This document shows, in pieces, positions 1,237-49,037 of a stretch of DNA of 49,037 nucleotides (position 1 is its first letter; the number at the start of each line of letters is the position of its first letter). Source of the DNA: a virus (lineage: Duplodnaviria > Heunggongvirae > Uroviricota > Caudoviricetes). The DNA lies in the IMG/VR virus record IMGVR_UViG_2778261529_000004. The stretch is one strand, 5' to 3'. The notes beneath the pieces were generated by a model. That model worked only from the letters and a program-made list of their open reading frames with translations, did not search any database and was not told where the DNA came from. A program made the position numbers and the translations under genes.

Positions 1237-1237
1237 A

Positions 1238-1477
1238 TCATGAGTCTTTGATAAACTGATTTATCTTTGGATAGTTGTACCAGATAATCCCTCGTTTGCT
1301 GTCTGGCTTACCTAAAGGAGATACTCGTTTGAAGTGGAAGCCCTCCACCCAACAGTTCTGGCGGTATGCTTCAATTTGTCTGGCCCCCAGACCAGTGCGA
1401 AGCATCAGGCCGTATTCAACCATCCACTCTTCATTAAAGATTACTTGTGCCATCGCATCACCTCTGGCAGGCGCCAA
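1238..1477 (-). CDS. Excisionase-like small DNA-binding protein (ydaQ/xis position), 79 aa
   Basis: Small ORF immediately upstream of and co-oriented with the integrase, stop 2 nt from the integrase start; position matches xis in Rac-like prophages. Confidence 0.6.
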
Positions 1478-1552
1478 TGTTAGACTGAAATTGACGCCTG
1501 ATGTTGATTATTAATAATCAGCTATGAAGTTATAATTTGGATATAATGCAAC

Positions 1553-1741
1553 TCACGAGGGCCGAAGTTTCTCGCAATTAAAATTTATCAGCTTTACTTT
1601 CTGCTCTCTGGAAACGCCTGCTTCTTTTTTCCCCGAGAGCATTTTTTCGCATTCTGATTTAGTTAGTTTAGATTTTGAATATCTTGTCCAGTTAGTAGGA
1701 GTGCCACCTTCCTTTTCAATAGTGGCGGTAATTTTATACAT
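1553..1741 (-). CDS. Hypothetical small protein (ydaC position)
   Basis: Track ORF 1553..1813; preferred start at the internal ATG preceded by GGAGG a few nt after the Lar stop. Start is uncertain. Confidence 0.45.
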   Translation of the reverse strand: MYKITATIEKEGGTPTNWTRYSKSKLTKSECEKMLSGKKEAGVSREQKVKLINFNCEKLRPS

Positions 1742-1928
1742 GAACACCTCCATTATTATTTCCAGTGGTTCGTTTATTCCATCGTTCGAGTGCTTCTTTT
1801 TCACTTCCACCATAGCCGGTTCGGGATTCGCATCCGTTACACTTCGCGCGGTAATATCCTGAAATGGCTTTCACCGTTACTGATGGACAACCACAAAAAG
1901 GGCATGGTTTGACTTTTTCATACCGCAT
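1734..1928 (-). CDS. ralR: Restriction alleviation protein Lar/RalR family
   Basis: Translation MRYEKVKPCPFCGCPSVTVKAISGYYRAKCNGCESRTGYGG... has the Cys-rich zinc-finger core remembered for Rac RalR; lies between recT and xis as in Rac. Track ORF extends to 1943; start chosen by remembered homology. Confidence 0.7.
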   Translation of the reverse strand: MRYEKVKPCPFCGCPSVTVKAISGYYRAKCNGCESRTGYGGSEKEALERWNKRTTGNNNGGVHV

Positions 1929-1991
1929 TGTCTTTTCTCTCATATAATAAAGTTTTGTGATGGCGGTGAGGCTACACCGCCAAAGTCAATA

Positions 1992-3095
1992 TCAGGAGCC
2001 GATATATTCTGGTTTCATATCTGTCAGTGTCGTTTTATACGCCTCATATAATTCACCCAGATGTGGTCGTGCAGCATTCAGCGTATTTTCCAGAGCAGTA
2101 AATTTTTGTTCTGCTTCTGGATCACCTGATGAAGGCAGGTCATTTATCATCTTCTCGATACTGGCAATAGCATTGAGACGGTGATGACGCCGAACCACTT
2201 TTCCTTTAAGCTCGGCAAAGAATTCGCCGATCTGGTTTTTCTGATCCTCTATCTCTTGGCGTAATGCAGTGGTTTCCTCAGTCGTGGCCGCGCTTTCTAT
2301 ACGCTGCCGGAATTCATCAATCCACGCTTCGTCAATACGCTGTTCGATGGTTTCTGTTCGCTGCTCGCTTACCTCGCTATAATTCTGTACCGACACAGGA
2401 TTGATGATTTTTTCCTGTGGCTCTTCCAGTTCGTCCGGGGTATACACGCCCAGGATGACGTCAGGACAATAAAGGCGAGCCCAGTATTTCAACGCCAGAT
2501 AGGCGAGCTGTTGTTTCGGGTTTGAGGTCCATAAAGGAGAATTACGCGTAATCACGCTGGAAAGAAACACCGGTTCTCCCCAGGTAATCTCACTTTCACC
2601 GCGAAGAACTGCACCAACTCGAACTGAGAGACCATACTCATCTTCACTGGTCCAACATGGGATCGTTTCTTTTTTCTCATAGATTCCGCCTCCTTTGGCC
2701 GTTTTCTTAACGATCTCCACTCGGGTGCGAGAGCATTTCTCCCAGTCTCCCTCGTACTTGTAATGGAAGCGACCTACAATTGCACTTGAGCTAGAGATCA
2801 CAGCGTTAACCAGTTGTGCTTCATAACCCAGAACTCCGTTTACCAGGTGTGTTTTCTGAGCCACAGCGTAGGGGTTCATGCCCCATTGCATAGCTTGCAT
2901 GATGATTGCCATGCAGTCGGCAGGATTTCCGCGAAGGTGATCGGGAACTGTGACGGTGGCCTGTGCCATCAACCCGGCTACTGCCTGAAGTTGCGTCAAC
3001 GCCTGAACGTTAAAAATAGTGTTACTGGCAGAAATGGTATTTGGTGTCTGCTCTGTCGTGATGATATTGGTATTTTGCATGGTCAGGTTCTCCAT
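1992..3095 (-). CDS. recT: RecT/Red-beta family single-strand annealing protein, 367 aa
   Basis: Motifs resembling lambda Bet/RecT (QWGMNPY... and SNPKQQLAYLALKYWARLY); immediately downstream of and overlapping a RecE-like exonuclease gene. Confidence 0.7.
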   Translation of the reverse strand: MENLTMQNTNIITTEQTPNTISASNTIFNVQALTQLQAVAGLMAQATVTVPDHLRGNPADCMAIIMQAMQWGMNPYAVAQKTHLVNGVLGYEAQLVNAVISSSSAIVGRFHYKYEGDWEKCSRTRVEIVKKTAKGGGIYEKKETIPCWTSEDEYGLSVRVGAVLRGESEITWGEPVFLSSVITRNSPLWTSNPKQQLAYLALKYWARLYCPDVILGVYTPDELEEPQEKIINPVSVQNYSEVSEQRTETIEQRIDEAWIDEFRQRIESAATTEETTALRQEIEDQKNQIGEFFAELKGKVVRRHHRLNAIASIEKMINDLPSSGDPEAEQKFTALENTLNAARPHLGELYEAYKTTLTDMKPEYIGS

Positions 3096-6000
3096 TAAGC
3101 CAGATGCAGTGCTTCAAGACGACGAAGATCAAAGTCGTTTAATTCGTCGGTATAACTTTCGGTAATCGGTGCTGGCCAGTTGTTTGTCTCTAGAGCTTCG
3201 TTTATCTGGCGTAGCGTCCGGCGATATTCCTGTCGACCAAGTTCAAGGAGTTCCTGCGAGGCTTCCACGACTGCCACCCAGTGATAGCCAGCATCTTTGT
3301 TGACGAAGATCCAGAAAAATTTGTCCAGGTTTGCCACATCGCAATACATTGCGGCGCTGAGGTGATAATCACGCTCAATAATTTCACGGTGCAGGCGATC
3401 TTTAAGTCGTTCCTGCCGCACATAACCGAGGCTGACTGACTTCACGTCAGCGCAAATGCTTTCGTATGGCAGCCGGATTTCGATATCAGGACGGACCCTG
3501 ATTTCCAGCCCGGTTTCTTCATCAAACCCGAAATAGCTGATTTCAGATTTGCGATCCGGGTGGTTGAGTAGCCTTGCTGCATCGGTATTGTTTTGCAGTG
3601 CCGCGTGAATATTTTTTGCCTGTTCATACATATCCGGACTGATAAACGTTTTCCCGGCGTTTTCTTCTTGCTGGCGTTTTTGCCAGTCCTCCAGTGTCAC
3701 CAGTTCCGGGCGAATTTTCCGTGCGATTTCGGTTAATTGCTCTTTTGTGCCACTGATGTTGTAAGGCAAAGATTTAGCACGTTCTTTTTTTGCCAGTTCT
3801 GGATCTACAGTTTCAATTTGATCCAGAAGCTGCTCCCGTGCTCCACTGGTTTTCAACAGAGGAGGGAGGCTTGCGTTGTATTCTTTAATACAGGCTTTCA
3901 TTGCTGATGCTGTGTGTTTTTCCCCCTCAGGAATACGCCGAAATTCCACCGGAAGCGAACCGTAAAGGATGCCTGTTTCTTCGGCCCCAGCACTTACAGA
4001 CAGTGGCTGTATAAGAGTGCTGTTGTAGCTTTCGATCCACTCTTTCATCTGCTCTGGTGTCATCAGTGCTGGCAGACTGGCATTGTGTTTTTTAATGATG
4101 GCGATCAGTTCGTTAGAAGTAGTAACCACATATTCAGGAACCGGTACCGGAATGGCATATTCATCTGCGAATTTATCCGTTTCCAGAACATAGCTGTGAA
4201 TGATCCGCCCACGCAGCAGTGCATCACTTTCCTCGTTCGGAATAGTTCCGGCAATGTGCCGCCCGTGGTAATACATCAGGCTGATACGGGCATCCTTCAG
4301 CATCGTGCTGCTTATTCCGTTGGCGGAGTGATAAACCTCGTTCGGGAGGTTTTCATAGCGGCCTGGCTCGAAATATGACGGCCACATGATTTCAGTTGCT
4401 ACAGGAGCTGACGCTTCGCCAGTTTCATCACTGCAATTGCGATGCGGATCGCTGTCAGCATTCTCATTGTGCTGATGTTCAGCGCCTTCCATTTCCTCCG
4501 GATCTTTTTCCAGAGATTCATCCAGATTTTCTTCATTAAATGTTTCCTGATACGTTGCGTCGCCCATCGCCGCGCCACAATCAGGGCAGTTGCCCCCACC
4601 GCTCTGACCGCAGGCGGTGCAGACTTTTTCCGGTTCTTGTTGCTCTTCTGGTTCAGGCTGTTTCGTTTCTGGCTCGTTTTGTTGCGTATTTGGGCTGTTT
4701 TGTTCCGCTTTCTTGTCGTTCTGTTCCGTTTCTTGCTGGTTCTGGTTCACAGAGTCGAGGGTTTCAATCCCCTTAACCCATTTCGGATCGTTCGGGTCGC
4801 TAATCCCTTCAACAAATTCTCCGCGAGAGGCAGCCAGTAATTTGTCTGCATCGACAGGATTTTTGGGCGGAATGTTTTTCCGGGCTTCATGGAGTTCTGC
4901 CCGCAGTTTCTGATATTTCGCATCAACAGAATTTACCTGTGACTGAGCATCCAGCGGCTGCGTGTTCTGATGATGTTCAGTTGCATTCGGTTCCACTGTT
5001 TCAGCCGTTGCCTGTTCATCTGCCATTGCGCCAGATGGTTGTGGTTTTTCTTCATCGTCCTGTTTTCCTTCTTCTGTTACTCGCTGCGGCATCGGGGCAG
5101 AGGAGCGACCGCAGGCAATATCCACGATTTCCGGATCAGGGTTGGCATGATCGGTTTCAGTCAGTACTTTGTTCAGATATTCAGTGACGTGTGCGGGGAT
5201 GACCTCGATCCCAATTGGTGCTTCTTTCACGGACGCAACCACGATGGCGCGGGAATAATCCAGCCCGCCAGGCATGGTGATGAATTTGTCGCGGAAAACA
5301 GAAAAGGGTGGTTTATTTTCAGCGATAATTTCCTCAATGCGTTTAGCGTGTGCCGGATGAAGGTTATAGATGTCCACGTCCATTGAACGGGCCAGTACGC
5401 CAGTGGCTACATCGCGCGCCAGTGACGTCAGATCGTGGACGAAACCTTCGCCGCGATCGGTGAGGTTCCCGCCGCCAGCATTAGCACCAGAAGCCGTGCG
5501 AGTGATGCGTGAAACACGATTCCCTTTTCGCCATTCTTTTGTCAGAAGACCGCGATCAATGTGTTCGGTATCCAGCCAGGCTGAAATGAAATTCTTAAAT
5601 TCATAGGGCTGATGTTTTTTCGTGATAGAGAACACTGCCTTAATTGCATCAGTCAGGCGGAGCAGGGCGGCATTATCCAGAGTTGTCGGTTCTGCCATGC
5701 TGCGTATGGCCAACAGCAGATTCTGGACATAGCTGTTTTCCTGATCCATCTCAAGAGCAGTAATGTGTTTGCGTTGTTCACGGGTGGCATGATGCAGGTA
5801 TTTCCGATCCCCGGCTGCATACGTAAAAATGTGCAGAAGACGCTGTGTGAACCGCAAAGTGGCTACAGAGACTTCGCAATCCTGGCAATCCTCCTGGGCG
5901 TCTGCCTGCGCGTTTTCTTCCTGGCCTCCCGCCAGTTCTTTGGTTTCTTGAGCATTATCCTGGTGGTGAACGTCGTCTGGCGCTGCTCCCGGTTTTAGTT

Positions 6001-6262
6001 CCCAGGTCATGGAGTCTTTGCTGAGTTGATAGCGTTCACTCCAGGTAAAATCGATCTCACCTTCAGGGGGAAGGTCATTAACGACAGGAAAATTCGTGGC
6101 AACAGCTTTAAAATAGCTGCTCAGTTTTTTACCTGACTTAACGATCAGGTAGTCCAGAGTGGCACAGGTCGATTCAAAATCGTCGCTTGCCCACAGGACG
6201 ACGTCAGGTTCACCGGATGATTTTTTCGCTTTCCGTAACAGGAAGAGTGGTTTTGTGCTCAT
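3095..6262 (-). CDS. recE: RecE-like exonuclease VIII (PD-(D/E)xK C-terminal domain), 1055 aa
   Basis: Large ORF with a long acidic/Q-rich low-complexity middle, an internal CxxC...CxxC cluster ([19 protein letters not shown]) and a C-terminal nuclease-like domain; paired with recT. Confidence 0.65.
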
Positions 6263-24596: not shown

Positions 24597-24614
24597 AAAA
24601 TCAGGATATTTTTG

Positions 24615-26051
24615 ATGGCAGAGATCGAGATTACTGGCGGCCTCGGTTCAGCACTGATGCATATTCTTGAGGCTGAAGAAATTCAGCCGGGAACCGACAT
24701 TGGCTATGAATTGTGTAAGCAGCTGTGGCAATTCCATCCTCTGGGCGGAAAACTTGTCGAAAAACCCATACTGATGGCGATGTGTAAGCCGCGCCAGTAT
24801 AACGTGGAGACAGACCCTGACGAGAGGGTTGTGAGGCGTTTTCAGGAGGTATGGGAACGCATGAAGGTCAACGAGAAGATTAAAAATCTGTTTTTTCTGT
24901 CTCGTTGCTACGGTGCTGCAGCGATCGGCGTGGGCACCGACAGCGTTCCATGTCGTGAACCGCTTCCGACGTTCGGACTGACAGAAGATGACGTGTATAT
25001 CAACGCGTGGGACCCGTTGAACGCTTCCGGTTCGATGGTGACTGACCAGAACCCCAACAGCCCGTTTTTCCAGGAAGCCAATAAAAAACTGAAGATTGGT
25101 GGGAAAGACTGGCATCCGTCACGCACACTGAAAATCTTCAACGGCACACCGATTTATCTGGAGTTTCAGAGTTCATCGTTCGGATTCACCGGACGTAGTG
25201 TGTTTCAGCGCGTTCTTTATTCCCTGAAATCCTATATCAACACGATGGAGGCGAATGATCTCGTCAGCCAGAAGGCGGGCGTACTGGTAGCTAAAGTTGT
25301 GCAGTACGGTTCGAAACTTGACGGGATCATGGCTGCCGCCACGGGACGAAAAAGGGAAAACGTCAAAGAGGCAAAAAATAAAGGTGTGCTTAGTATCGGG
25401 AAGGATGAGGACGTTACCTCGCTAAATCTACAAAACATCGATGGTGCGCTAAACGCTGCACGCGACAATATTATTTCCGATATTGCGTCAGGGAGTGACG
25501 TTCCGGCGATCCTCATCAAAGAGGAAGCCTTTTCGAATGGTTTCGGTGAGGGGACCGAAGATTCGAAAGCCATCAGCCAGTATATCGATGGTGTACGCCA
25601 GCAGATTGAACCCGTGATGGATTATTTCGAACGCCTGGTGCAGTACATCGCCTGGAACGAGGAATTTTATCAGTCGCTGAAAAATGATTACCCGGACATC
25701 ATAACTGATGACTATAAAACCACGTTTTACCAGTGGCGACGTGAATTTACCGCGACATGGCAGGAGCTGGTGGAGGAGTCGCCGGACAAACGCCGGGAAA
25801 GCGACAGTAAAGTGATTCAACAGGCGATAGCACTTTTCTCTGCCGTGTCGCCACAGGTTGATCCTGAAAACCGTGCCGCCGTCACTGAATGGCTGGCAAG
25901 CCTTGTTAATGCCACGCAAACCTATGGCGAAGCTCCACTCATCATTGATGTGGACGCGCTGGCGAATTATGAACCACCGAAGCAGGAGACGCCTGATGGC
26001 AATTTCCAGCCGGGCGGTGAGGAAGAAGAAACGGATCAGGACGCTATATGA
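24615..26051 (+). CDS. Portal protein (putative), about 478 aa
   Basis: Large ORF directly after the terminase with an acidic C-terminus; call is positional. Confidence 0.6.
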   Translation: MAEIEITGGLGSALMHILEAEEIQPGTDIGYELCKQLWQFHPLGGKLVEKPILMAMCKPRQYNVETDPDERVVRRFQEVWERMKVNEKIKNLFFLSRCYGAAAIGVGTDSVPCREPLPTFGLTEDDVYINAWDPLNASGSMVTDQNPNSPFFQEANKKLKIGGKDWHPSRTLKIFNGTPIYLEFQSSSFGFTGRSVFQRVLYSLKSYINTMEANDLVSQKAGVLVAKVVQYGSKLDGIMAAATGRKRENVKEAKNKGVLSIGKDEDVTSLNLQNIDGALNAARDNIISDIASGSDVPAILIKEEAFSNGFGEGTEDSKAISQYIDGVRQQIEPVMDYFERLVQYIAWNEEFYQSLKNDYPDIITDDYKTTFYQWRREFTATWQELVEESPDKRRESDSKVIQQAIALFSAVSPQVDPENRAAVTEWLASLVNATQTYGEAPLIIDVDALANYEPPKQETPDGNFQPGGEEEETDQDAI

Positions 26052-39403: not shown

Positions 39404-39607
39404 TTGAATACGCAAGGGATGATTACGTATGTTTGGAGGTCTTCCGTGATTAATTTTAGCGGAGGAGACTGGATTGTGAAAGCCTTAAAATTAGTGGCAA
39501 AAAGCAATACCTTACGACGCATGTATTACACCGCTGCACTCGTAGCTTTAGCATTTGCCTTTTCACCAGTACTGACAGAGTTAGTTAAAGTGATGGGGGC
39601 ACGATGA
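39404..39607 (+). CDS. Small hypothetical protein with hydrophobic C-terminal segment
   Basis: Track ORF starting at TTG; alternative internal starts exist. Start is uncertain. Confidence 0.3.
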   Translation: MNTQGMITYVWRSSVINFSGGDWIVKALKLVAKSNTLRRMYYTAALVALAFAFSPVLTELVKVMGAR

Positions 39608-39951
39608 GAACATGGGGCCGCGTCACCGACGCGAACGGCAACAAAAAATGGGTTGCAGTAGAATCTGACGCCAACGGTGATTTCTCCTACGGCTGGCTGA
39701 CGACGCTCATTCAGACGTTAAAGCTGGGATTGGGGGAGTCGCCGTTTTACGCGAATTACGGTATTCCTGCACAGCAGTGCATCGTGCAGCAGATTTACCC
39801 AGACTACTATGTGAACATGGTTCAGCAACAGTTTGCTGGGTATTTTGCATCACTGGCAATTTCAAAGGTAGATGGAGCAGATAACCCCACCTATAACATC
39901 GATGTTGTGTTTTTTAATGGGACCAGTTACCGGACGCAGGTGCCGGTATGA
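39604..39951 (+). CDS. Hypothetical protein in the gpW/gp25-like position, 115 aa
   Basis: Start overlaps the upstream stop (ATGA); size and position match a baseplate wedge protein, but no motif recognised. Confidence 0.35.
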   Translation: MRTWGRVTDANGNKKWVAVESDANGDFSYGWLTTLIQTLKLGLGESPFYANYGIPAQQCIVQQIYPDYYVNMVQQQFAGYFASLAISKVDGADNPTYNIDVVFFNGTSYRTQVPV

Positions 39952-40100
39952 ATCACAGTTTTATGATAAAACTTTTACCTTGGTTTGGAGTGCTGTAGAG
40001 AGATATTTTAGGGGGGCGAGTAATTTTCTAAGCTGGAGCATATTGACATATATTATTTCGGATTTGCAAAATACATATTGTTACCATGGAGGAGACAAGC

Positions 40101-41261
40101 ATGGAAAATTTTGCAAATAAGTTAAAAATACACACAGAGCATGTTGCAAAAATGGGGGTGTTTTGTACAACTGAAGAAACGACAAAACAAGCACTCATTA
40201 TGCCATTACTAGATATTCTTGGTTTTACTCCGTATGATCCAAGAAAAGTCAAAGCTGAGTATAGTGCTGACTTCCCCGGGGTTAAGGCTAATGAACGGGT
40301 TGATTACGCTTTATTTTGTCATGATGTTCCTGTGATGTTCATTGAGGCGAAATCGTTTTCAGAACAAATTGATAATCACTGCCCACAGCTATCAAGATAT
40401 TTTAATTCAACACCGGAAGTTACTATATCAGCCATTACAAATGGTGTTGAATGGCGTTTTTTTACGGATTTGAAACAAAAAAACATAATGGATTCAACGC
40501 CGTTTTTAAAAATAAGAATGGATTCTCTAACTCACTCCGATATTACACAATTATTTCGTTTTCGTTATGATAAATTCAAACCAGAGGCTTTACGGACACT
40601 GGCTGAAGAAAGTGTTTATTTGAATTCATTTACTAAAACAATCAGTTCTAGTCTTCGTGAAGTTGATCTGGAGTTTGTTCGATATGTTGCTAGTCGTTCA
40701 AATATTGAGAGACAACTTAATCAGAGATTTCTTGAGTTCGTGACTCCATTAGTTAAACAGGCCGTTGAGCGCGCTGTTAGCGCAATGGTGGTTTCCGGGC
40801 TATCTACACAACCGGTAGAGCAAACTAAAGAAAATGATGCAACGGATACACAAGTTAATAACGCCATTGTTGATGAAGAAAACCCCAACATAATAACCAC
40901 AGCCAAAGAATTGGAGCTATTTGAAAGGGTAAAACAAATCATACAAACAGAAGATAATATAGAATATAAAGATACTGAGTCATATTTTGGTGTGCTATTG
41001 AATGGTAAAACTAATAGATGGCTGTTAAGATTTTATGATAAAAAATCTTCATTTATAACTTTACCTATTTCGCTTAGTGAAGTTCAGTTGAATGAAATAA
41101 GACGAGCTCGACTTGATACGGATGGTAAAAGGATACATATAACTAATCCGGAAGATATACTTCGCATATCTGGTTTGATTCTGGATTCATACGAGTATGT
41201 TAAAAATGATGATAATTTCCGCCGAGGGTCCAGAGTGAGCAGTTTAGAAGAGGTTGAATAA
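40101..41261 (+). CDS. PD-(D/E)xK nuclease-fold protein with HsdR-N-like domain (moron; candidate defence nuclease), about 386 aa
   Basis: N-terminal segment ETTKQALIMPLLDILGF ... VDYALFCHDVPVMFIEAKS ... ISAITNGVEWRFF matches the type I restriction R-subunit N-terminal nuclease-domain pattern (D...E.K, TNG..W); RBS GGAGG upstream of ATG; AT-rich; terminators on both sides. Confidence 0.6.
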   Translation: MENFANKLKIHTEHVAKMGVFCTTEETTKQALIMPLLDILGFTPYDPRKVKAEYSADFPGVKANERVDYALFCHDVPVMFIEAKSFSEQIDNHCPQLSRYFNSTPEVTISAITNGVEWRFFTDLKQKNIMDSTPFLKIRMDSLTHSDITQLFRFRYDKFKPEALRTLAEESVYLNSFTKTISSSLREVDLEFVRYVASRSNIERQLNQRFLEFVTPLVKQAVERAVSAMVVSGLSTQPVEQTKENDATDTQVNNAIVDEENPNIITTAKELELFERVKQIIQTEDNIEYKDTESYFGVLLNGKTNRWLLRFYDKKSSFITLPISLSEVQLNEIRRARLDTDGKRIHITNPEDILRISGLILDSYEYVKNDDNFRRGSRVSSLEEVE

Positions 41262-42529: not shown

Positions 42530-43139
42530 AAAAATTCTCCCTGCTTATCCGTTTGTGCAGTACAGAGATGATCCGAATGTTGTTGCGTTCTTTGATGCAT
42601 ACAATGAAATTGCTCAGGAATACCTCGATTCACTCAACAATCTGGCATTGCCATGCTGGACATCGGAATCAATAACCGGGCAATTGCTGGACTGGATTGC
42701 TCTCGGGATTTATGGCGTTGAAAGGCCTTTACTACAGGTTTCCGAGGAGGCTATTGCACGCGGCGCATACGATACCATTGAATACAATACAATCCCTTAT
42801 GCGGCAATGCGGAATTATGTTCCGGGGCAGGCATCGTATGTTCCGGATGATTATTTCAAGCGAATATTAACTTGGAATTTTTATAAGGCTGACGGTTCGC
42901 ATTTCTGCATTGACTGGTTAAAGCGCCGTGTGGCACGGTTCATTCATGGGAAAAACGGAATAGACCCGCCGTTGCAGCACACTTTTGATGTGAGCGTGAC
43001 TGTGTCGGACAGTGTTTTTTCTATTCATATACCAGAATATGGTGATGGTATAGGCTATTTTCTGAAAGATGCCATTGACCAGAAATATGTAAAACTCCCT
43101 TTTATTTATTCTTATGCAACAACGGTGATTCAAAAATGA
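42513..43139 (+). CDS. Baseplate/tail protein I-like (about 208 aa)
   Basis: Overlaps the J-like stop; start chosen at MQYLTEK; track ORF starts upstream at 42405. Confidence 0.45.
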   Translation: MQYLTEKILPAYPFVQYRDDPNVVAFFDAYNEIAQEYLDSLNNLALPCWTSESITGQLLDWIALGIYGVERPLLQVSEEAIARGAYDTIEYNTIPYAAMRNYVPGQASYVPDDYFKRILTWNFYKADGSHFCIDWLKRRVARFIHGKNGIDPPLQHTFDVSVTVSDSVFSIHIPEYGDGIGYFLKDAIDQKYVKLPFIYSYATTVIQK

Positions 43140-44689
43140 TTCTTGGGTTCGGCAATAACGTTGTTTCAGCACTGGCTGGTGATATCACCACGATTCAGAC
43201 TGATATTCCGGTAATGCCCGGTACAGGGGCTAAATTTGCAAAATTGCTTTCTGCCGATTTTGAAAATAAATCGAACGGGCAACGCGTCTATGCAAAAATT
43301 ACGCTTACCGATAATAAAGAGTCTGCATTTGAGATTTGTCACTTGGTATCGGTAAGCGGTGATGTGTTGAAAGTCATTCGTGGGCAGGAAGGAACAACCG
43401 CGAAAGGTTGGTCCCTTAATGATGTTGTGGCTAACTTTGCCACGCGTGGTTCGGAAAACTATTTCGTACAAATAGCGCAGCTTCAGAGCGGTCATTATAT
43501 TGCGGGTGTTACTGGTGGCACTGCAAACGCACTGACGCTGGAACTTCCCTCGACGTTTTTTGTTAATGGAGGTACAGATTGGACGCTACGAACCCCGATT
43601 ATAGTTTTCCCCGTTCAGAACAATACCAACGCGGCGACACTTCAACTAACACTAGGCGGAAAGGTTCTTGGTACGTTCCCACTTTATAAGGGGAACAAGT
43701 CCGAGCTGGTAGCGAATGATATCATTAAGGGTATTCCTTTGATTTGCCTTCTTGATAGCGAGAAAAGCTATTTCAGTGTGATAAACCCCGGCAATATCTA
43801 TTCAGATTTTGATCTGCGATATGTAAAAAAATCTGGTGATTTGATGACCGGGGAGCTGAAAATACGTGGTGTTAATGCATTGAGGATTTTTAACGAGGCT
43901 TTTGGCCTTATTTTTCGCCGTTCTGAAGAGTGCCTGCACCTTATCCCTACTAGTGAAGGTCAGGGCGAGAATGGAGATATTGGTCCCCTGCGTCCGCTCA
44001 CCATTAATTTGCGGACAGGAGAGATATCCATGTCGCATAAAGTGTCTGTTGGCGGTGGTTCTCAGGTCAATGGTGCACTGGGTATCGGCGTTCAGAACGC
44101 GCTGGGCGGAAACTCAATTGCTTTCGGGGATAACGATACAGGTATAAAACAAAACGGCGACGGCATTCTGGATGTTTATGCGAATGGACAGCATGTATTT
44201 CGTTTCCAGAATGGTGTGGCGATAGCGTTAAAAAATATTCAGGCCGGGGATAGTAAAAAATTCACGCTATCCAGCTCCAACAGCTCCACGAAGAACGTAG
44301 GGTTTAATTTATGGGGTAATCCATCCAGACCTGTAGTTGCAGAACTTGGTGATGATTCCGGTTGGCATTTCTACAGCCAGAGAAATACCGATGGCAGTAT
44401 CACATTCGCTGTAAACGGACAGATGACCCCATCAAACTATGGAAATTTCGATGCCCGTTACCAGCAGCGAAATGGCGGCGTGCAGGATGTGCGCTATGGT
44501 TCCGAAATGTATTACAACCCTGGCAGCAATGTAATCTCCTGGACATATCACGCTCCTGCGGGACACGGATTGTCAGGGATATCGATATCGGATACTGGTA
44601 AAAATTCAGCGGATAACGTCAACGGCGTGTATTACCGACCTCTTCAGAAACTGATTAATGGCACCTGGTATAACGTGGCGAGTGTTTAA
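43136..44689 (+). CDS. Tail fibre protein, 517 aa
   Basis: Gly/Asn/Ser-rich repeats (GGGSQVNGALGIGVQNALGGNSIAFGDNDTG); followed by a tail-fibre assembly chaperone. Confidence 0.6.
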   Translation: MILGFGNNVVSALAGDITTIQTDIPVMPGTGAKFAKLLSADFENKSNGQRVYAKITLTDNKESAFEICHLVSVSGDVLKVIRGQEGTTAKGWSLNDVVANFATRGSENYFVQIAQLQSGHYIAGVTGGTANALTLELPSTFFVNGGTDWTLRTPIIVFPVQNNTNAATLQLTLGGKVLGTFPLYKGNKSELVANDIIKGIPLICLLDSEKSYFSVINPGNIYSDFDLRYVKKSGDLMTGELKIRGVNALRIFNEAFGLIFRRSEECLHLIPTSEGQGENGDIGPLRPLTINLRTGEISMSHKVSVGGGSQVNGALGIGVQNALGGNSIAFGDNDTGIKQNGDGILDVYANGQHVFRFQNGVAIALKNIQAGDSKKFTLSSSNSSTKNVGFNLWGNPSRPVVAELGDDSGWHFYSQRNTDGSITFAVNGQMTPSNYGNFDARYQQRNGGVQDVRYGSEMYYNPGSNVISWTYHAPAGHGLSGISISDTGKNSADNVNGVYYRPLQKLINGTWYNVASV

Positions 44690-44691
44690 CA

Positions 44692-45237
44692 ATGTTGCAT
44701 TTAAAAAATATTACTGCGGGTAATCCGAAAACCGCAGAACAATACCAGATGACAAAAAAATATGATGTCACCTGGCTTTTTTCGGAAGATGACCAAAACT
44801 GGTATGAAGAGCTGAAAAATTTTGCCAGTGACACCATAAAAATGGTTTACACCGGAGACGGGCGCGTGGTATGGGTCGGTAAGGATGTGACAGGCATTGA
44901 ACCCCGTAACGCCAGTGTTATTGAAGTTCCTGATATTACCGCTAACCGCCGTATTACCGTGCCTGGTTACTGGTTTTACCGCGACGATAAATTTGTCTTC
45001 GACTACAAACTTAAAGCGGAAGATGAGCGCGATGCCCTGTTAAAACAGGTCAGCATCATGACCAGCGAATGGGAAAAAGACCTGCTGCTGGGATTAATCA
45101 GTGACGAAGACAGGGAAAAACTGAAAGTGTACCGCATTTACGCGAAATCGCTGCAGACGATGGATTTCAGCCCCATCACTGATAAAGCCTCATATAACGC
45201 CATTGAATGGCCCGTCTCTCCGGAAGCCTCTTCCTGA
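44692..45237 (+). CDS. Tail fibre assembly chaperone, 181 aa
   Basis: Immediately downstream of the fibre gene; C-terminal region typical of Tfa-family chaperones. Confidence 0.55.
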   Translation: MLHLKNITAGNPKTAEQYQMTKKYDVTWLFSEDDQNWYEELKNFASDTIKMVYTGDGRVVWVGKDVTGIEPRNASVIEVPDITANRRITVPGYWFYRDDKFVFDYKLKAEDERDALLKQVSIMTSEWEKDLLLGLISDEDREKLKVYRIYAKSLQTMDFSPITDKASYNAIEWPVSPEASS

Positions 45238-45260
45238 TTTAATTTATCGCGAGAAAAACT

Positions 45261-47540
45261 ATGTCTGTAGTGATATCAGGTGCGCTGATTGATGGCGCAG
45301 GCATCCCTATGTCCGGATGCCACATAATTCTGAAATCCCGGGTAAACACCTCAGAAGTGGTGATGCGCACAGTTGCCGACGTGGTGACAGGAAACTGTGG
45401 CGAGTACTGTTTTAAGGCGCAGACCGGAAAATATTGCGTATATCTGAAACAGGACTGGCGCGACGAGTACTGTGTTGGCGACATTGCTGTATACGACGAC
45501 TCAAAGCCCGGCACGCTGAACGACTTTCTGACTGCCCTTGATGAAGGCGATTTAAAGCCGGATGTAGTGAAACGCTTTGAGGAAATGGTGGCGCAGGCGC
45601 AGCAGAGCGCGGAATCGGCAGCGGAAAGCGAGCGACAGGCCGGGCAACATGTCGCTGATGCGCAACAAATTAAGAGCGACTGCAAGACGTTTGCGGATAA
45701 CGTACAGCAGAATGCAGAAGCTGTTGCCGAAGATAAAAAGCAGGTGGCGCTGCTGGCATCATCTGCCACACAGGATGCGGCCCGCGCAGAGCAGGCTGTC
45801 AAGGATGCTGACGCGATAGTCCAGAAAGCGGTCGATAAACTTGCTGATGCCGCAACGCTGACCGGTGAGGCAAAAGCCAGCGCCGAAGCGGCTGCAAAAA
45901 GCGAGCAGAACGCAAAAAGTCACGCCGATAATGCAGCCGGAAGCGCACAACAGACTGCACAGGATGTGACAGCAACCGAAACGGCCCGTGATGACGCAGA
46001 GCGTTTTGCGAATGAGGCAGAAAACAGCGCACAGACATCAGGGACAGCGCGGGATGAATCAGTTGATGCAGCCGAACGCGCCAGCCAGCATAAGGAAGCC
46101 GCGTCTTCGGCTGCGACCAGTGCAGAAAATGCGGCAAATGTTGCGCTGGGCCATGAAAATAACGCTGCCGAATATGCCCGGCAGGCGAAGGCCAGTCAGG
46201 ATGCGAGCGAAGGCAATGCGCAGGAAGCGAAACGGTGCAGGGACGAGGCGCAGCAGATTGTTGATGACCTGAAGGGAAGTAATGCCACCACGACAGAAAA
46301 AGGCCTGGTGCAACTCTGTAGTGACACGGATAACGACAGCGAAGAACTGGCGGTCACACCAAAAGCCGTCAAAGTTGTCATGGACGAGACGAATACAAAA
46401 GCGCCTCTGGACAGCCCGGCGTTCACCGGCACGCCCACCACACCAACCCCGCCGGACGATGCGACCGGGCTGGAGATGGCGAACGCGGCGTTTGTCCGCA
46501 GACTGCTCGCTGCACTGGTTGACTCGTCACCGGAAGCCCTGGACACACTGAACGAGCTGGCAGCGGCGCTGGGTAATGACCCGAACTTTGCGACAACGGT
46601 TACTAAAGCACTGGCAGGTAAACAGCCGCTTAATGATGTGTTAACGGCTGTCAGCCAGATAATACCGGAAGAAAACACGCTGCCTTATTTCAGTGCAGAG
46701 GGCCGGATTTTACTGGCGCAGCTGTCAGAAAAGGCCCGCGCATTACTGGCACTGGACACACCTGAAGCCATGCGCACGGAGCTTGAACTGAAAGCGGCTG
46801 GGACAATGGACCCCCAGAGCGATATCCGCGACCGCACACCAGGCAGGCTGGCACTGCCGGGTGCCTTCGGCTTTGGTTATGCGTTCAGCCAATCTGAACG
46901 CCTTGATTTTAATTCCGATGAAAAATTCCTTGAGTGGGTAAAAAACGCCACGGAGGGACGTTATTTTATTTATTCATACAATTCAAAAATATTTCCGGAC
47001 CGTAATTCTTTTACCGGGATTGTCGACGTGAATCTTTTTCCATCCGGGAGCAGTAACGGTAATCCGGCAAAAACCGACAAGGGGTTATTTTTTTACAGCA
47101 GATATCAGCCAGATTCTGAACAGTCTGTTTTTTATGTACAGTACAGCTCGGTATATGCTGACGGGGTGGTGACGTGGGGGCTGACTTCAGTCAGAAATCT
47201 GTCTCTGACGTCAAAGATGTTAAGCGAGTATCTGTCGTCCACGGCAGGAGCGGGGACTTATTTTCAGTACCCGGGTATTGGCGTTCCGGTACTGGCGGTT
47301 TACCGGGGAACGGCTGCCGGAGACAACGAAATCAGGATTGGTCTGGGTGATGTGGTTCATGGTTCGTGCCTGGGGTCAGTAAACATAACCTGCTTAATAG
47401 GCGCAACGGGTGTTTATTCGTCTACTCCACGAGTTGGCGCGTCGGCGTACTCTTTTCCCGGACGCTATATGGCGATATCCGGCGACCGCGGTTCTTACGG
47501 GGATGAAGGTCACATTTGCCTGTTTGTGCGCATCGAGTAA
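45261..47540 (+). CDS. Side tail fibre protein (lambda Stf-like), 759 aa
   Basis: Conserved Stf-like blocks (YDDSKPGTLNDFL; TTEKGLVQLCSDTDNDSEELAVTPKAVKVVMDETNTKAPLDSPAFTGTPT; DTLNELAAALGNDPNFATTVTKALAGKQP) and an Ala-rich central region. Confidence 0.75.
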   Translation: MSVVISGALIDGAGIPMSGCHIILKSRVNTSEVVMRTVADVVTGNCGEYCFKAQTGKYCVYLKQDWRDEYCVGDIAVYDDSKPGTLNDFLTALDEGDLKPDVVKRFEEMVAQAQQSAESAAESERQAGQHVADAQQIKSDCKTFADNVQQNAEAVAEDKKQVALLASSATQDAARAEQAVKDADAIVQKAVDKLADAATLTGEAKASAEAAAKSEQNAKSHADNAAGSAQQTAQDVTATETARDDAERFANEAENSAQTSGTARDESVDAAERASQHKEAASSAATSAENAANVALGHENNAAEYARQAKASQDASEGNAQEAKRCRDEAQQIVDDLKGSNATTTEKGLVQLCSDTDNDSEELAVTPKAVKVVMDETNTKAPLDSPAFTGTPTTPTPPDDATGLEMANAAFVRRLLAALVDSSPEALDTLNELAAALGNDPNFATTVTKALAGKQPLNDVLTAVSQIIPEENTLPYFSAEGRILLAQLSEKARALLALDTPEAMRTELELKAAGTMDPQSDIRDRTPGRLALPGAFGFGYAFSQSERLDFNSDEKFLEWVKNATEGRYFIYSYNSKIFPDRNSFTGIVDVNLFPSGSSNGNPAKTDKGLFFYSRYQPDSEQSVFYVQYSSVYADGVVTWGLTSVRNLSLTSKMLSEYLSSTAGAGTYFQYPGIGVPVLAVYRGTAAGDNEIRIGLGDVVHGSCLGSVNITCLIGATGVYSSTPRVGASAYSFPGRYMAISGDRGSYGDEGHICLFVRIE

Positions 47541-47553
47541 CGGGGAATAAAAC

Positions 47554-48126
47554 ATGAAAATCAGAGCGGTAAAGGGCATCAGAAACGCCCATTATCTTGA
47601 AAATGGTGCGGTTGACTGCGAGGTGTTATTTGAAGGTGAAACGGAATTCGTCCCGTATACCGCCATGCAGGATGATACCGCACCGACAGGCCAGCGCATC
47701 TGGGAAGAGTTACAGAGCGGCAAATGGGGCGAAATCGCCCCGTTCACCGTCACGCCGGAACTTATCGCTGCGGCAAAAGATGCCAAAAAGCGGGAAATCG
47801 AGGTGTGGCGTACAGAACAGGAAGCACTGCCGTTCACGTTCGAATGGAACGGTCGCACCTGGAACGCTGGCCCCGACTCAATGGCCCGTCTTTATCCGGT
47901 AGTAATGGCGGCGAAATCCGATACGGCACGAACCACCCTTGCGTGGGGTGATGCCGATAATCAACAGGTGCAACTGTCGATGCCGGAACTGGAAGAACTG
48001 GCGGCAGCAATGGCGCAGGCTGTTGTTGAACGCAATGACGAGATTTATCGCCGTCAGCGAGAGAGGAAAGAAGCGTTAGACGCTCTGGAGGATTTAGATG
48101 CGATACGAGCATTTAATGTTGAGTAA
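47554..48126 (+). CDS. Tail fibre assembly protein (Tfa-like), 190 aa
   Basis: Immediately downstream of the Stf-like gene; call is positional. Confidence 0.55.
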   Translation: MKIRAVKGIRNAHYLENGAVDCEVLFEGETEFVPYTAMQDDTAPTGQRIWEELQSGKWGEIAPFTVTPELIAAAKDAKKREIEVWRTEQEALPFTFEWNGRTWNAGPDSMARLYPVVMAAKSDTARTTLAWGDADNQQVQLSMPELEELAAAMAQAVVERNDEIYRRQRERKEALDALEDLDAIRAFNVE

Positions 48127-48305
48127 CGAATAGGTCGCAGTGAGTCGTTCTGGTATCTGAAGAATGAGGCTCCGGTTGCTGGCTGCAGTCGGAGGTTTAT
48201 GATGTGTACTCTCACATTGTTGAAGAAATCAACTGCGCAATTGGAGAGCAGGAACGTAAGAAAACAAGAGAAAGTCTACAATCGCTTGCAGGGGGGGGGC
48301 ACTTC

Positions 48306-48335
48306 TTGATTTTTGCATAAATTTTATGATAAAAT
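48306..48335 (+). promoter_or_regulatory. Candidate sigma70 promoter with extended -10 for the right-end cargo gene
   Basis: TTGATT, 15 nt, TG, ATAAAAT upstream of RBS GGGAGA and ATG at 48366. Confidence 0.35.
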
Positions 48336-48365
48336 CATGAAGTAAAAGTGATGGGAGAAACTTTC

Positions 48366-49037
48366 ATGAATATGCCTCATTGTGTTCTGCATACAGGAAT
48401 TGATTCGGATTTTGTACTTAGTAAACTGGGCTTTACAGAAAATGATATTCGCGATGCGTTAATGTCTGCTTTATACGAGCGACGCAAATCCAGTAAGCTC
48501 CACCCTAAAGTGGATGCTGGATTCCGCTTTTGGAGTGAGATGGTTGCCGCGCTTCGCCGTATTCTGATTGGTAAGGGTAACGGCTGGTCTTCTGAAGTAG
48601 TCAATCGCATGGAAATGGTCGTTAATTCAAGCAAAGGGGTTAATCTGATTATTACCTCAGGTGACGGACATACCGGGCGTCCTGATGGATTGCCTAAAAC
48701 CAAAAATGCAAAGGGAGAGGCAACTCGCTCGATTGTTCACAACAATCCGGGTACATTCGATATGTTCCAAGCAGATACCTTACATTCAGGCAAAGCTGAG
48801 ATCACGCCGATAGATAGCACCCGAACTTATATCGTTCTGTATTATTATGATGCGGCAAATAAAGAAATTCGCTGTGAGGTGTCGTATCCGGTAGGGATGG
48901 TGAATCAGGACGGATTTGCCAGAGTAAGCGCGTGGAGTGAGCGAATTATTTTAGCTCCTCTGCAATTTGAAGGTGCGGATATTTTCCCTGAACAGGATTT
49001 TGATGATGACATATCAATTTCAGTTGAAAGCAAATGA
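48366..49037 (+). CDS. Hypothetical cargo protein at the prophage right end (about 223 aa)
   Basis: Complete ORF (stop at last window base) with its own promoter-like sequence and RBS, separated from tail genes by an intergenic region; no recognisable motif. Confidence 0.5.
   Translation: MNMPHCVLHTGIDSDFVLSKLGFTENDIRDALMSALYERRKSSKLHPKVDAGFRFWSEMVAALRRILIGKGNGWSSEVVNRMEMVVNSSKGVNLIITSGDGHTGRPDGLPKTKNAKGEATRSIVHNNPGTFDMFQADTLHSGKAEITPIDSTRTYIVLYYYDAANKEIRCEVSYPVGMVNQDGFARVSAWSERIILAPLQFEGADIFPEQDFDDDISISVESK

What the first reader, a model, noticed from the sequence alone, without database searches (positions are those of the whole stretch)
48306..49037. Promoter-equipped cargo gene at the prophage right end, after the tail-fibre chaperone
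Downstream of the last tail-fibre assembly gene there is an intergenic gap, a sigma70-like promoter with extended -10, an RBS and a complete 223-aa ORF with no recognisable motif, more AT-rich than the tail genes. The region between tail fibres and the attachment site is a recurrent hotspot for defence genes and morons. The window ends at its stop codon, so any partner genes are unseen.
Basis: partly seen in the sequence, partly recalled or inferred. Interest (0 to 1): 0.55.

Follow-up and report, generated by a model that had tools for sequence, protein, structure and literature searches.

The report
RosmerTA toxin gene at prophage end
The 223-codon gene after the tail-fibre genes is the toxin half (rmrT) of a RosmerTA toxin-antitoxin anti-phage defence pair carried as cargo by a Rac-type E. 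coli prophage; it is a real but already known kind of system, and its partner gene starts in the last four bases of the window.

Summary
After the last tail-fibre accessory gene (DUF4376, 47554-48126) comes a 239-bp gap, one sigma70-like promoter with a TG-extended -10 (48306-48335), an RBS, and a complete 223-aa ORF (48366-49037) that is more AT-rich than its neighbours.

The ORF has no Pfam, PHROG or NCBIfam match. It does match the PADLOC model for RmrT, the toxin of RosmerTA (E=1.4e-59). The experimentally verified E. coli OLC-716 RmrT hits the same model and is 29% identical.

The window's last four bases, ATGA, are the overlapping start of the partner gene. In eight complete E. coli genomes that carry this DNA (the toxin protein was compared in one and is identical), the two loci examined show a 368-aa HTH + M78 Zn-peptidase protein (RmrA, E=5.6e-143) next, then the apparent attR, then uspF.

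Two points go beyond the database label:
- The promoter lies inside a 43-bp palindrome whose arms are invariant across E. coli, Rouxiella, Yersinia, Serratia and Pantoea loci, while the flanks are unalignable. This is probably the RmrA operator.
- The toxin model weakly resembles restriction-endonuclease folds but has no canonical catalytic motif.

This is a new member of a known kind, of modest interest.

The parts
47554..48126 (+). Last tail-module gene: a 190-aa DUF4376 protein, the tail-fibre accessory or chaperone-like gene. Context only, not part of the defence module.
   Evidence: Pfam DUF4376 E=1.8e-16. PHROG 1141 'tail fiber protein' E=8e-88.
48127..48365 (+). 239-bp intergenic region separating the late tail operon from the cargo operon. 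98-99% identical in the two related E. coli loci aligned.
48170..48194 (+). Terminator-like hairpin (10 pairs, 6 G-C) with a poor T-tail. Possibly the end of the late transcript. Weak evidence.
   Evidence: 4 such sites found against 2.4 +/- 1.4 in shuffles, so not significant on its own.
48301..48343 (.). 43-bp imperfect palindrome ACTTCTTGATTTTTGCATAAA-T-TTTATGATAAAATCATGAAGT that encloses the -35 and -10. Putative operator for the RmrA HTH, giving autorepression.
   Evidence: Inverted repeat with 21-nt arms, 86% complementary. The arms are invariant in 8 loci from 4 genera while the flanks are unalignable. 0 matches expected by chance in the window. All 3 exact pattern hits in 185,579 species genomes lie about 23 nt upstream of an rmrT homologue. 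The RmrA HTH segment is almost invariant in the same loci.
48306..48335 (+). Sigma70-type promoter: -35 TTGATT (48306-48311), 18-nt spacer, TG (48327-48328), -10 TAAAAT (48330-48335).
   Evidence: Conserved across genera.
48353..48358 (+). Ribosome-binding site GGGAGA, 7 nt upstream of the ATG.
   Evidence: Purine-rich equivalents sit at the same place in relatives.
48366..49037 (+). rmrT: the 223-aa RosmerTA toxin. Soluble and acidic, with no transmembrane segment.
   Evidence: PADLOC RmrT PDLC03935 E=1.4e-59. 29% identity, E=4e-19, to the verified OLC-716 RmrT, which hits the same model at 1.1e-52. 100% identical to WP_001057015.1. Max KD(19)=0.76, pI 5.7.
49034..49037 (+). ATGA: the start codon of rmrA (antitoxin, HTH + M78 peptidase) overlapping the rmrT stop. 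The gene is cut off by the end of the window.
   Evidence: In L001 and L002 the same ATGA opens a 368-aa ORF. For the L001 copy: PADLOC RmrA E=5.6e-143, Pfam Peptidase_M78 4.5e-21 plus HTH_3 1.8e-09.

Best explanation
The ORF is rmrT, the toxin gene of a two-gene RosmerTA toxin-antitoxin anti-phage defence module. A Rac-site lambdoid prophage of E. coli carries it as terminal cargo between its tail-fibre genes and attR.

Shown here:
- rmrT is transcribed from its own promoter and not as part of the tail operon.
- It is followed, with a 4-base ATGA overlap that suggests translational coupling, by rmrA. RmrA has an N-terminal XRE-type HTH, an M78/ImmA-type Zn-peptidase domain with an intact HEXXH, and a C-terminal region.
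- The toxin-then-HTH/M78 pairing was kept in every relative examined, in prophages, integrative elements and defence islands.

Inferred:
- RmrA neutralises RmrT and, through its HTH, binds the conserved 43-bp palindrome that covers the -35 and -10. The operon would then be autorepressed and expressed at a low level in the lysogen.
- Infection by another phage disturbs RmrA (trigger unknown; probably sensed through the peptidase domain, with ClpXP proteolysis influencing the balance). RmrT is released and arrests or kills the cell before the invader completes its cycle.

Weakly inferred:
- RmrT acts in the cytoplasm, possibly on nucleic acid. It has no membrane segment, and its model resembles restriction-endonuclease-like alpha/beta folds.
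- Candidate functional residues are the family-invariant E171 and R193, plus R169, K116 and D162 (each at least 81% conserved).
For: Family assignment:
- PADLOC RmrT PDLC03935, E=1.4e-59, over residues 12-223.
- The verified OLC-716 RmrT (Millman et al., bioRxiv 10.1101/2022.05.11.491447, Tables S2 and S11) hits the same model at 1.1e-52. It aligns to this protein over residues 7-200 at 29% identity, E=4e-19.

Partner gene:
- Eight complete E. coli genomes hold this DNA at 98.9-99.1% identity. The toxin protein, compared in L001, is 100% identical.
- In L001 and L002 a 368-aa gene overlaps the stop by ATGA.
- The L001 copy is RmrA (PDLC03949, E=5.6e-143), with Peptidase_M78 and HTH_3 domains. 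It is 44% identical to the verified RmrA, E=8e-106.
- HEXXH (H207-E208-x-x-H211) is invariant.

Conserved pairing in other contexts:
- Cupriavidus, a metagenome bin, Rouxiella, Yersinia, three Serratia-type prophages and S. fonticola all show the toxin first and an HTH+M78 gene immediately after.
- In Rouxiella, Yersinia and S. fonticola the pair sits beside other defence-type genes: OLD-TOPRIM + UvrD and type I R-M, SIR2-nSTAND, DO-GTPase/GASH/GAAD. In the Serratia-type prophages it sits in the replication/nin region.

Promoter and operator. The HTH of RmrA is co-conserved.

Prophage position:
- Integrase at 1-1236(-), RecT and RecE beside it.
- In the related genome, int abuts ttcA.
- A 15-bp repeat ATACAATCTGAACAA is shared by the ttcA 5' region and the spacer about 330 bp after rmrA, ahead of uspF.

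Literature:
- A delta-rmrA mutant could not be transformed, and the system defends when expressed from its native promoter.
- An HTH/peptidase TA of prophage origin makes clpP essential in E. coli E101.

Toxin model:
- AF2 pLDDT 81.2, pTM 0.79.
- No hydrophobic segment.
Against: - rmrA itself is not in the window. Only its ATG is, so the pairing is inferred from other genomes (toxin identity checked in one).
- This member has no experimental data. The verified homologue is only 29% identical.
- Defence as opposed to mere prophage addiction is not distinguishable by sequence.
- The promoter match alone is no better than chance.
- The only characterised RmrT activity in the literature, for phage Kita RmrT_D5, is membrane depolarisation by an unrelated toxin family.
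Confidence: 0.82

Rival explanations
1. The pair is a plain addiction or stabilisation toxin-antitoxin module. It keeps the prophage in the chromosome through post-segregational killing on loss and has no real role against other phages.
For: - The architecture is that of a type II TA operon with an operator-like palindrome over its promoter.
- It sits at the very end of a mobile element.
- Relatives are also on plasmids.
- The related E101 module was found through a fitness effect and not through defence.
Against: - The same HMM family includes a system shown to protect against phages from its native promoter.
- Relatives lie next to Gabija-like genes, type I R-M, SIR2-nSTAND and GTPase conflict systems, a defence-island signature.
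- In E101, clones that had excised the prophage were viable, which argues against strong addiction.
- The two roles are not mutually exclusive.
Confidence: 0.12
2. The ORF is a virion or tail-assembly component, such as a further fibre chaperone or a receptor-binding accessory, expressed with the late genes.
For: It lies directly downstream of two fibre/chaperone pairs on the same strand.
Against: - No PHROG match at all.
- It has its own conserved promoter after a 239-bp gap.
- Composition differs from the adjacent fibre genes.
- Homologues occur in non-phage islands, on plasmids and in the replication/nin region of other prophages, always with an HTH-peptidase gene and never with fibre genes.
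Confidence: 0.02
3. The gene is an inert remnant or a chance ORF with no function.
For: It is annotated only as 'hypothetical protein' everywhere.
Against: - The exact protein is seen on 394 contigs, and a close variant on 842 Salmonella contigs.
- A profile search finds 1485 cluster representatives at E<=1e-3, and the 150 best listed are nearly all full length at 208-257 aa.
- Residues are invariant across the family, and synteny with rmrA is conserved.
Confidence: 0.02

Closest known systems
RosmerTA (RmrT/RmrA) of E. coli OLC-716, verified by Millman et al. 2022 (bioRxiv 10.1101/2022.05.11.491447)
   Same: - Same PADLOC toxin model (PDLC03935) and the same RmrA family.
- Toxin first, then a roughly 370-aa HTH + Zn-peptidase antitoxin.
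- Similar toxin lengths (223 vs 239 aa), colinear over about 200 residues, including the HP, G-D/C-x-TG, P-x-x-x-x-KG and LLY/R-x-E-L-S motifs.
   Different: - The toxin is only 29% identical and the antitoxin 44%.
- The operator sequence differs: the OLC-716 upstream region has its own CCTCAAATGAGG palindrome (read from the construct sequence).
- This member is untested, and its genomic site, the right end of a Rac-site prophage, is specific to it.
Prophage TA of E. coli E101 (E101_02645/02644) that makes clpP essential (Rousset et al., bioRxiv 10.1101/2020.05.25.114553); later cited as RosmerTA-type
   Same: A prophage-borne pair of a hypothetical toxin followed by an antidote, with toxicity that depends on host proteolysis.
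   Different: The E101 sequences could not be retrieved here, so homology to this RmrT is not established.
RmrT_D5/RmrA of Gordonia phage Kita (NetFlax, PMC10440598)
   Same: A phage-encoded RosmerTA with an ImmA-type protease antitoxin and narrow anti-phage defence.
   Different: The Kita toxin is an unrelated family with a membrane-targeted C-terminus that depolarises the membrane. The present RmrT has no hydrophobic segment.
ImmR/ImmA (ICEBs1) and IrrE/DdrO-type HTH + M78 peptidase switches
   Same: An M78 HEXXH peptidase is coupled to an XRE-type HTH that controls a promoter.
   Different: There the protease and repressor are separate proteins that control element induction or the DNA-damage response. 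Here both domains are in one antitoxin, paired with a toxin. Cleavage has not been shown.
PD-(D/E)XK type II restriction endonucleases (NaeI, ThaI, BglI, SfiI, SwaI) and RecU
   Different: - Foldseek is negative.
- No canonical catalytic motif. The invariant residues lie mainly in the 99-117 loop and the C-terminal strands.

Membership tests
RosmerTA defence system | Toxin matches an RmrT family profile | tested here: met
   PDLC03935 E=1.4e-59, near full length. The verified RmrT hits the same model.
RosmerTA defence system | Adjacent antitoxin RmrA with an HTH and a Zn-peptidase (M78/ImmA) domain | tested here: met
   Only the ATG of the next gene is in the window. In L001 and L002 the next gene is a 368-aa ORF. 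The L001 copy is RmrA E=5.6e-143 with Peptidase_M78 + HTH_3. HEXXH is invariant.
RosmerTA defence system | Two genes form one operon and the pairing is conserved across taxa | tested here: met
   ATGA overlap. The same order and adjacency occur in 11 further loci from Cupriavidus, Rouxiella, Yersinia, Serratia and metagenomes.
RosmerTA defence system | RmrT is toxic and RmrA neutralises it | not testable with these tools
   Literature only, for the 29%-identical homologue: a delta-rmrA mutant could not be transformed.
RosmerTA defence system | Protects against phage infection | not testable with these tools
   Shown for OLC-716 and the Kita systems. For this member there is only defence-island context of relatives.
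Autoregulated type II toxin-antitoxin operon | Palindromic operator overlapping the promoter, bound by the antitoxin's DNA-binding domain | tested here: inconclusive
   The palindrome is present, conserved, and specific to rmrT upstream regions, and the HTH is co-conserved. Binding and repression could not be tested.
PD-(D/E)XK nuclease superfamily | Restriction-endonuclease-like alpha/beta/alpha core fold | tested here: inconclusive
   [not shown]
PD-(D/E)XK nuclease superfamily | Conserved catalytic D...(D/E)xK motif on strands 2 and 3 of the core | tested here: not met
   Strands 82-87 and 92-99 carry no conserved acidic-x-K. D100 is D in only 70% of members and N in others. The invariant residues are W74, G99, G117, E171, W190 and R193. 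This was judged from the sequence and the predicted secondary structure only, because model coordinates could not be superposed.
Phage tail / tail-fibre assembly proteins | Similarity to a tail family (PHROGs, Pfam Caudo_TAP, DUF4376) | tested here: not met
   No PHROG or Pfam hit for the ORF, while its three upstream neighbours hit tail families.

The most novel reading that the evidence does not exclude
This RmrT family has about 1500 cluster representatives, no Pfam domain and no solved relative. It could be a previously unrecognised, highly diverged restriction-endonuclease-like effector with a non-canonical active site built from E171, R169, R193, K116 and the G99-D100/T103-G104 loop. Its conserved acidic, disordered C-terminal tail (196-223) could be the handle through which the RmrA peptidase or ClpXP controls it. 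The invariant 43-bp operator would make the module a self-contained, portable 'promoter + sensor + effector' cassette.
Probability: 0.2. Interest if true: 0.5.

Novelty: new member of a known kind. Interest (0 to 1): 0.3.

Why it matters
It shows that this Rac-type prophage carries an anti-phage toxin-antitoxin module at its attR-proximal end. That supports the view that the stretch between tail fibres and attR in lambdoid prophages is a cargo slot for defence genes.

Practically, it corrects 'hypothetical protein' annotations seen on hundreds of E. coli and Salmonella contigs.

It also gives two testable handles on a system whose mechanism is still unknown:
- a sharply defined, cross-genus conserved operator for RmrA;
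- a short list of invariant residues, plus a soluble nuclease-like fold hypothesis, for the toxin family that includes the experimentally verified RosmerTA.

It does not reveal a new kind of system.

Tried and rejected
- Pfam, PHROGs and NCBIfam on the ORF gave nothing. The NCBIfam DfrD hit at E=0.12 is noise.
- Pfam on 61 family members at E<=5 gave only singleton noise.
- Foldseek against PDB had no hit below E=0.05. Histidine-kinase hits have TM about 0.15, and Hje has probability 0.33.
- The AFDB50 library was unavailable.
- I tried to place a PD-(D/E)XK motif on the predicted strands and failed.
- Megablast against the phage collection found no match. tblastn found only two Acinetobacter phage records at 28% identity.
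- Rfam on 47500-49037 gave nothing near any gathering score.
- The terminator-like hairpin at 48170-48194 is not above chance.
- Rousset 2021 is not held by PubMed id, so I used the preprint. The E101 toxin sequence could not be obtained, so its relation to this family stays open (one search did not list its accession).
- PADLOC gave no hit for the other odd ORFs in the window: the 391-aa HSDR_N protein, the 115-aa ORF, RecT and RecE.

Full report
**1. The observation**

- The last tail-module gene, 47554-48126, encodes a 190-aa DUF4376 protein (Pfam E=1.8e-16; PHROG 1141 'tail fiber protein' E=8e-88).
- A 239-bp gap follows.
- The consensus scan finds exactly one sigma70-like site in 47000-49037: TTGATT (48306-48311), an 18-nt spacer, and TAAAAT (48330-48335) preceded by TG. 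Shuffles give 2.8 such sites per region, so this match alone proves nothing.
- GGGAGA (48353-48358) lies 7 nt before the ATG at 48366, which opens a 223-codon ORF ending with the window at 49037.
- An upstream GTG (48348) is possible, but only the ATG and the N-terminus M-x-x-P-x-C are conserved in relatives.
- The ORF has GC 0.439 and GC3 0.384, against 0.534/0.545 and 0.542/0.546 for the two genes before it.

**2. What the gene is**

Pfam, PHROGs and NCBIfam return nothing. PADLOC returns RmrT (PDLC03935), E=1.4e-59, over residues 12-223.

RmrT is the toxin of RosmerTA, one of the defence systems reported by Millman et al. [quoted passage not shown] Its delta-rmrA mutant could not be transformed, and it was tested under its native promoter.

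The supplementary tables of that paper give the verified system, from E. coli OLC-716, with its sequences.
- Its RmrT hits the same PADLOC model (E=1.1e-52).
- It aligns with the window protein over residues 7-200 at 29% identity, E=4e-19.

**3. The unseen partner**

The window's last four bases are ATGA. The DNA of 48127-49037 occurs at 98.9-99.1% identity in eight of 5,426 complete E. coli genomes, always on the chromosome.
- The toxin protein in PapRG-04-4 (L001) is 100% identical.
- In PapRG-04-4 and OkiPb01675, the ATGA opens a 368-aa gene annotated 'helix-turn-helix domain-containing protein'.
- The PapRG-04-4 copy is RmrA: PDLC03949 E=5.6e-143, and Pfam Peptidase_M78 4.5e-21 plus HTH_3 1.8e-09.
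- It is 44% identical to the verified RmrA, E=8e-106, and its HEXXH (H207-E208-x-x-H211) is invariant.

So the finding is the first gene of an rmrT-rmrA operon that the window boundary cuts in two.

**4. Where it sits**

The window begins with a tyrosine integrase (1-1236, minus strand), followed by RecT and RecE homologues. In the related genome the integrase abuts ttcA, the Rac attachment locus, with xisR, ralR, kilR and ydaSTUV-type genes alongside.

On the right side, rmrA is followed by about 550 bp and then uspF, ompN and nifJ. A 15-bp repeat, ATACAATCTGAACAA, is shared between the 5' region of ttcA and a site about 330 bp after rmrA. It is the likely att core, though I did not pursue it further.

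The module is therefore the last cargo before attR of a Rac-site lambdoid prophage. It lies immediately after two tail-fibre/chaperone pairs (43136-45237 and 45261-48126).

**5. Breadth and context of the family**

Close relatives (at least 52% identity) are few: 19 clusters, from E. coli, Serratia, Yersinia and Rouxiella. A profile search of 1.84 billion representatives finds 1485 proteins at E<=1e-3 and 690 at E<=1e-10. The 150 best listed are nearly all full length at 208-257 aa. The exact protein is on 394 contigs, and a variant is on 842 Salmonella contigs, all named 'hypothetical'.

Every relative whose context I fetched has the toxin first and an HTH+M78 gene directly after:

| Locus | Source | Neighbourhood |
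|---|---|---|
| L004 | Cupriavidus | phage portal and CbiA/AAA_31 ATPase genes upstream; acetyltransferase and AraC-type regulator genes downstream |
| L005, L006 | metagenome bin | mostly unannotated ORFs |
| L007 | Rouxiella | between OLD-TOPRIM + UvrD (Gabija-like) genes and a type I R-M system |
| L008, L009 | Yersinia | integrative element next to a SIR2-nSTAND protein |
| L012 | S. fonticola | next to DO-GTPase/GASH/GAAD genes and an integrase |
| L010, L011, L013, L014 | Serratia-type lambdoid prophages | between DnaB and the nin/Q region |

Plasmids also carry the family; sequenced phages rarely do. The pair behaves as a portable cassette that lands in different cargo slots.

**6. Promoter and operator (new here)**

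The promoter lies inside a 43-bp imperfect palindrome, ACTTCTTGATTTTTGCATAAA-T-TTTATGATAAAATCATGAAGT (48301-48343; 21-nt arms, 86% complementary).
- I aligned the 120 nt upstream of rmrT from eight loci (E. coli, Rouxiella, Yersinia, Serratia). Their toxins are 52-58% identical to this one. The flanks are unalignable, but ACTTCTTGATTT...CAT...TTATG..AAAATCATGAAGT is invariant, including the -35, the TG and xAAAAT.
- The pattern is not expected by chance: 0 matches in 100 shuffles, and it matches itself on the other strand with 2 mismatches.
- A scan of one genome per species (185,579 species) found three exact hits, in a Pantoea MAG, Yersinia ruckeri and S. fonticola. Each lies about 23 nt upstream of an rmrT homologue. 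In the two loci that extend far enough, rmrA follows.
- The RmrA proteins of the aligned loci are 68-70% identical overall to the E. coli one, but almost invariant through the HTH (residues 11-52).

This is a phylogenetic footprint of a promoter-overlapping operator. I infer, but cannot show, that RmrA binds it and autorepresses the operon, as in classical type II TA systems.

**7. How the toxin might act**

The protein is soluble: max Kyte-Doolittle(19) is 0.76 and pI is 5.7. It has an acidic tail at 196-223 that is predicted disordered.

Two AF2 models were made: 18 sequences giving pLDDT 69.6, and 36 sequences giving pLDDT 81.2 and pTM 0.79. Both show three N-terminal helices, a three-stranded meander (74-99), a conserved loop (99-117), a helix, and three long C-terminal strands.

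Structure searches:
- Foldseek finds nothing significant.
- A profile search of PDB sequences gives only a marginal hit to BfiI (E=0.098).

Residue conservation:
- Invariant across the family: W74, G99, G117, E171, W190, R193.
- At least 90% conserved in the 61-sequence alignment: G52, R64, T103, G104, P110, K116, N127, D162, R169, S173, P175.
- D100 is D in only 70% of members.

I could not place a canonical D...(D/E)xK on the expected strands. I therefore do not file the toxin as a PD-(D/E)XK nuclease. I keep 'cytoplasmic, possibly nucleic-acid-directed effector' as a lead, at about 0.3 confidence. It is clearly unlike the membrane-depolarising RmrT_D5 of phage Kita.

**8. Mechanism proposed**

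Shown:
- The toxin-antitoxin gene pair with overlapping stop and start codons.
- Its own conserved promoter and palindrome.
- An intact peptidase motif.
- Homology to a verified defence system.

Inferred:
- RmrA neutralises RmrT and represses the operon.
- Infection perturbs RmrA and frees RmrT, causing abortive infection.
- ClpXP influences the balance, by analogy with prophage modules that make clpP or clpX essential.

The trigger and the toxin's target are unknown.

**9. Rivals**

- A pure addiction role cannot be excluded by sequence (confidence 0.12). The defence-island neighbourhoods, and the verified defence by a member of the same HMM family, argue for defence.
- A tail function is contradicted.
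- A non-functional ORF is contradicted by conservation.

**10. Novelty and verdict**

However, PADLOC names the system directly, and RosmerTA has been known since 2022. This is a new, untested and fairly divergent member of a known kind, sitting in an expected place.

The conserved operator and the residue and fold leads are modest additions. Interest is 0.3.

Noticed in passing
window 48291-48299: A run of nine G (GCAGGGGGGGGGCAC) lies directly 5' of the operator palindrome. The two related E. coli loci aligned have GGGTGT at this position, 3 nt shorter. It could be a sequencing or assembly artefact, or a slippage-prone tract next to the -35.
   Followed up: partly
window 40086-41261 (+), with the 115-aa ORF at 39604-39951: A 391-aa protein has only the N-terminal HSDR_N/HSDR_N_2 domain of type I restriction R subunits. 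RefSeq annotates it as 'type I restriction endonuclease'. It is inserted between the baseplate genes, preceded by a small ORF with no matches. It has no PADLOC hit. It may be a second moron inside the tail module.
   Followed up: partly
window 43136-48126: There are two successive fibre + accessory pairs: a 517-aa protein + Caudo_TAP, then a 759-aa phage_tail_N fibre + DUF4376. The second fibre is 759 aa here, 474 aa in PapRG-04-4, and reduced to a fragment in OkiPb01675. Window 45652-47569 has no match in L001. This indicates modular exchange of the receptor-binding part.
   Followed up: no
window 1-6262: The window starts exactly at the stop codon of a 411-aa integrase and ends exactly at the rmrT stop. 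It looks like a gene-boundary-delimited prophage call that cut the rmrTA operon in two. RecT (1992-3095) and a 1055-aa RecE (3095-6262) mark the element as Rac-like. The related prophage in PapRG-04-4 also carries Gam, Bet and lambda exonuclease genes, alongside a RecE pseudogene.
   Followed up: partly
window 48230-48243: A short palindrome, CAACTGCGCAATTG, lies in the intergenic region upstream of the promoter. It is a perfect CAATTGCGCAATTG in the related genomes. Its function is unknown.
   Followed up: no
L007 2145-12681; L008 7961-10477; L012 561-4715: Close rmrTA relatives lie beside other conflict systems. In Rouxiella: OLD-TOPRIM ATPase + UvrD helicase (Gabija-like) and a type I R-M system with an FRG-domain gene. 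In Yersinia: an 838-aa SIR2 + nSTAND NTPase. In S. fonticola: a DO-GTPase1/2-GASH-GAAD/metallophosphatase cluster.
   Followed up: no
L003 17987-19423 (about window 24600-26050): RefSeq annotates the 478-aa gene next to the terminase in the related prophage as 'anti-CBASS protein Acb1 family protein'. By its position this may be a portal-associated protein. I did not check it in the window.
   Followed up: no
L010 5001-6781 vs L011 5001-6781: In one Serratia marcescens assembly the rmrA gene call starts 72 nt after the rmrT stop and lacks the HTH (343 aa). The near-identical locus in another assembly has the usual 368-aa, 4-nt-overlapping gene. This may be a frameshift or start-site difference in rmrA.
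   Followed up: no
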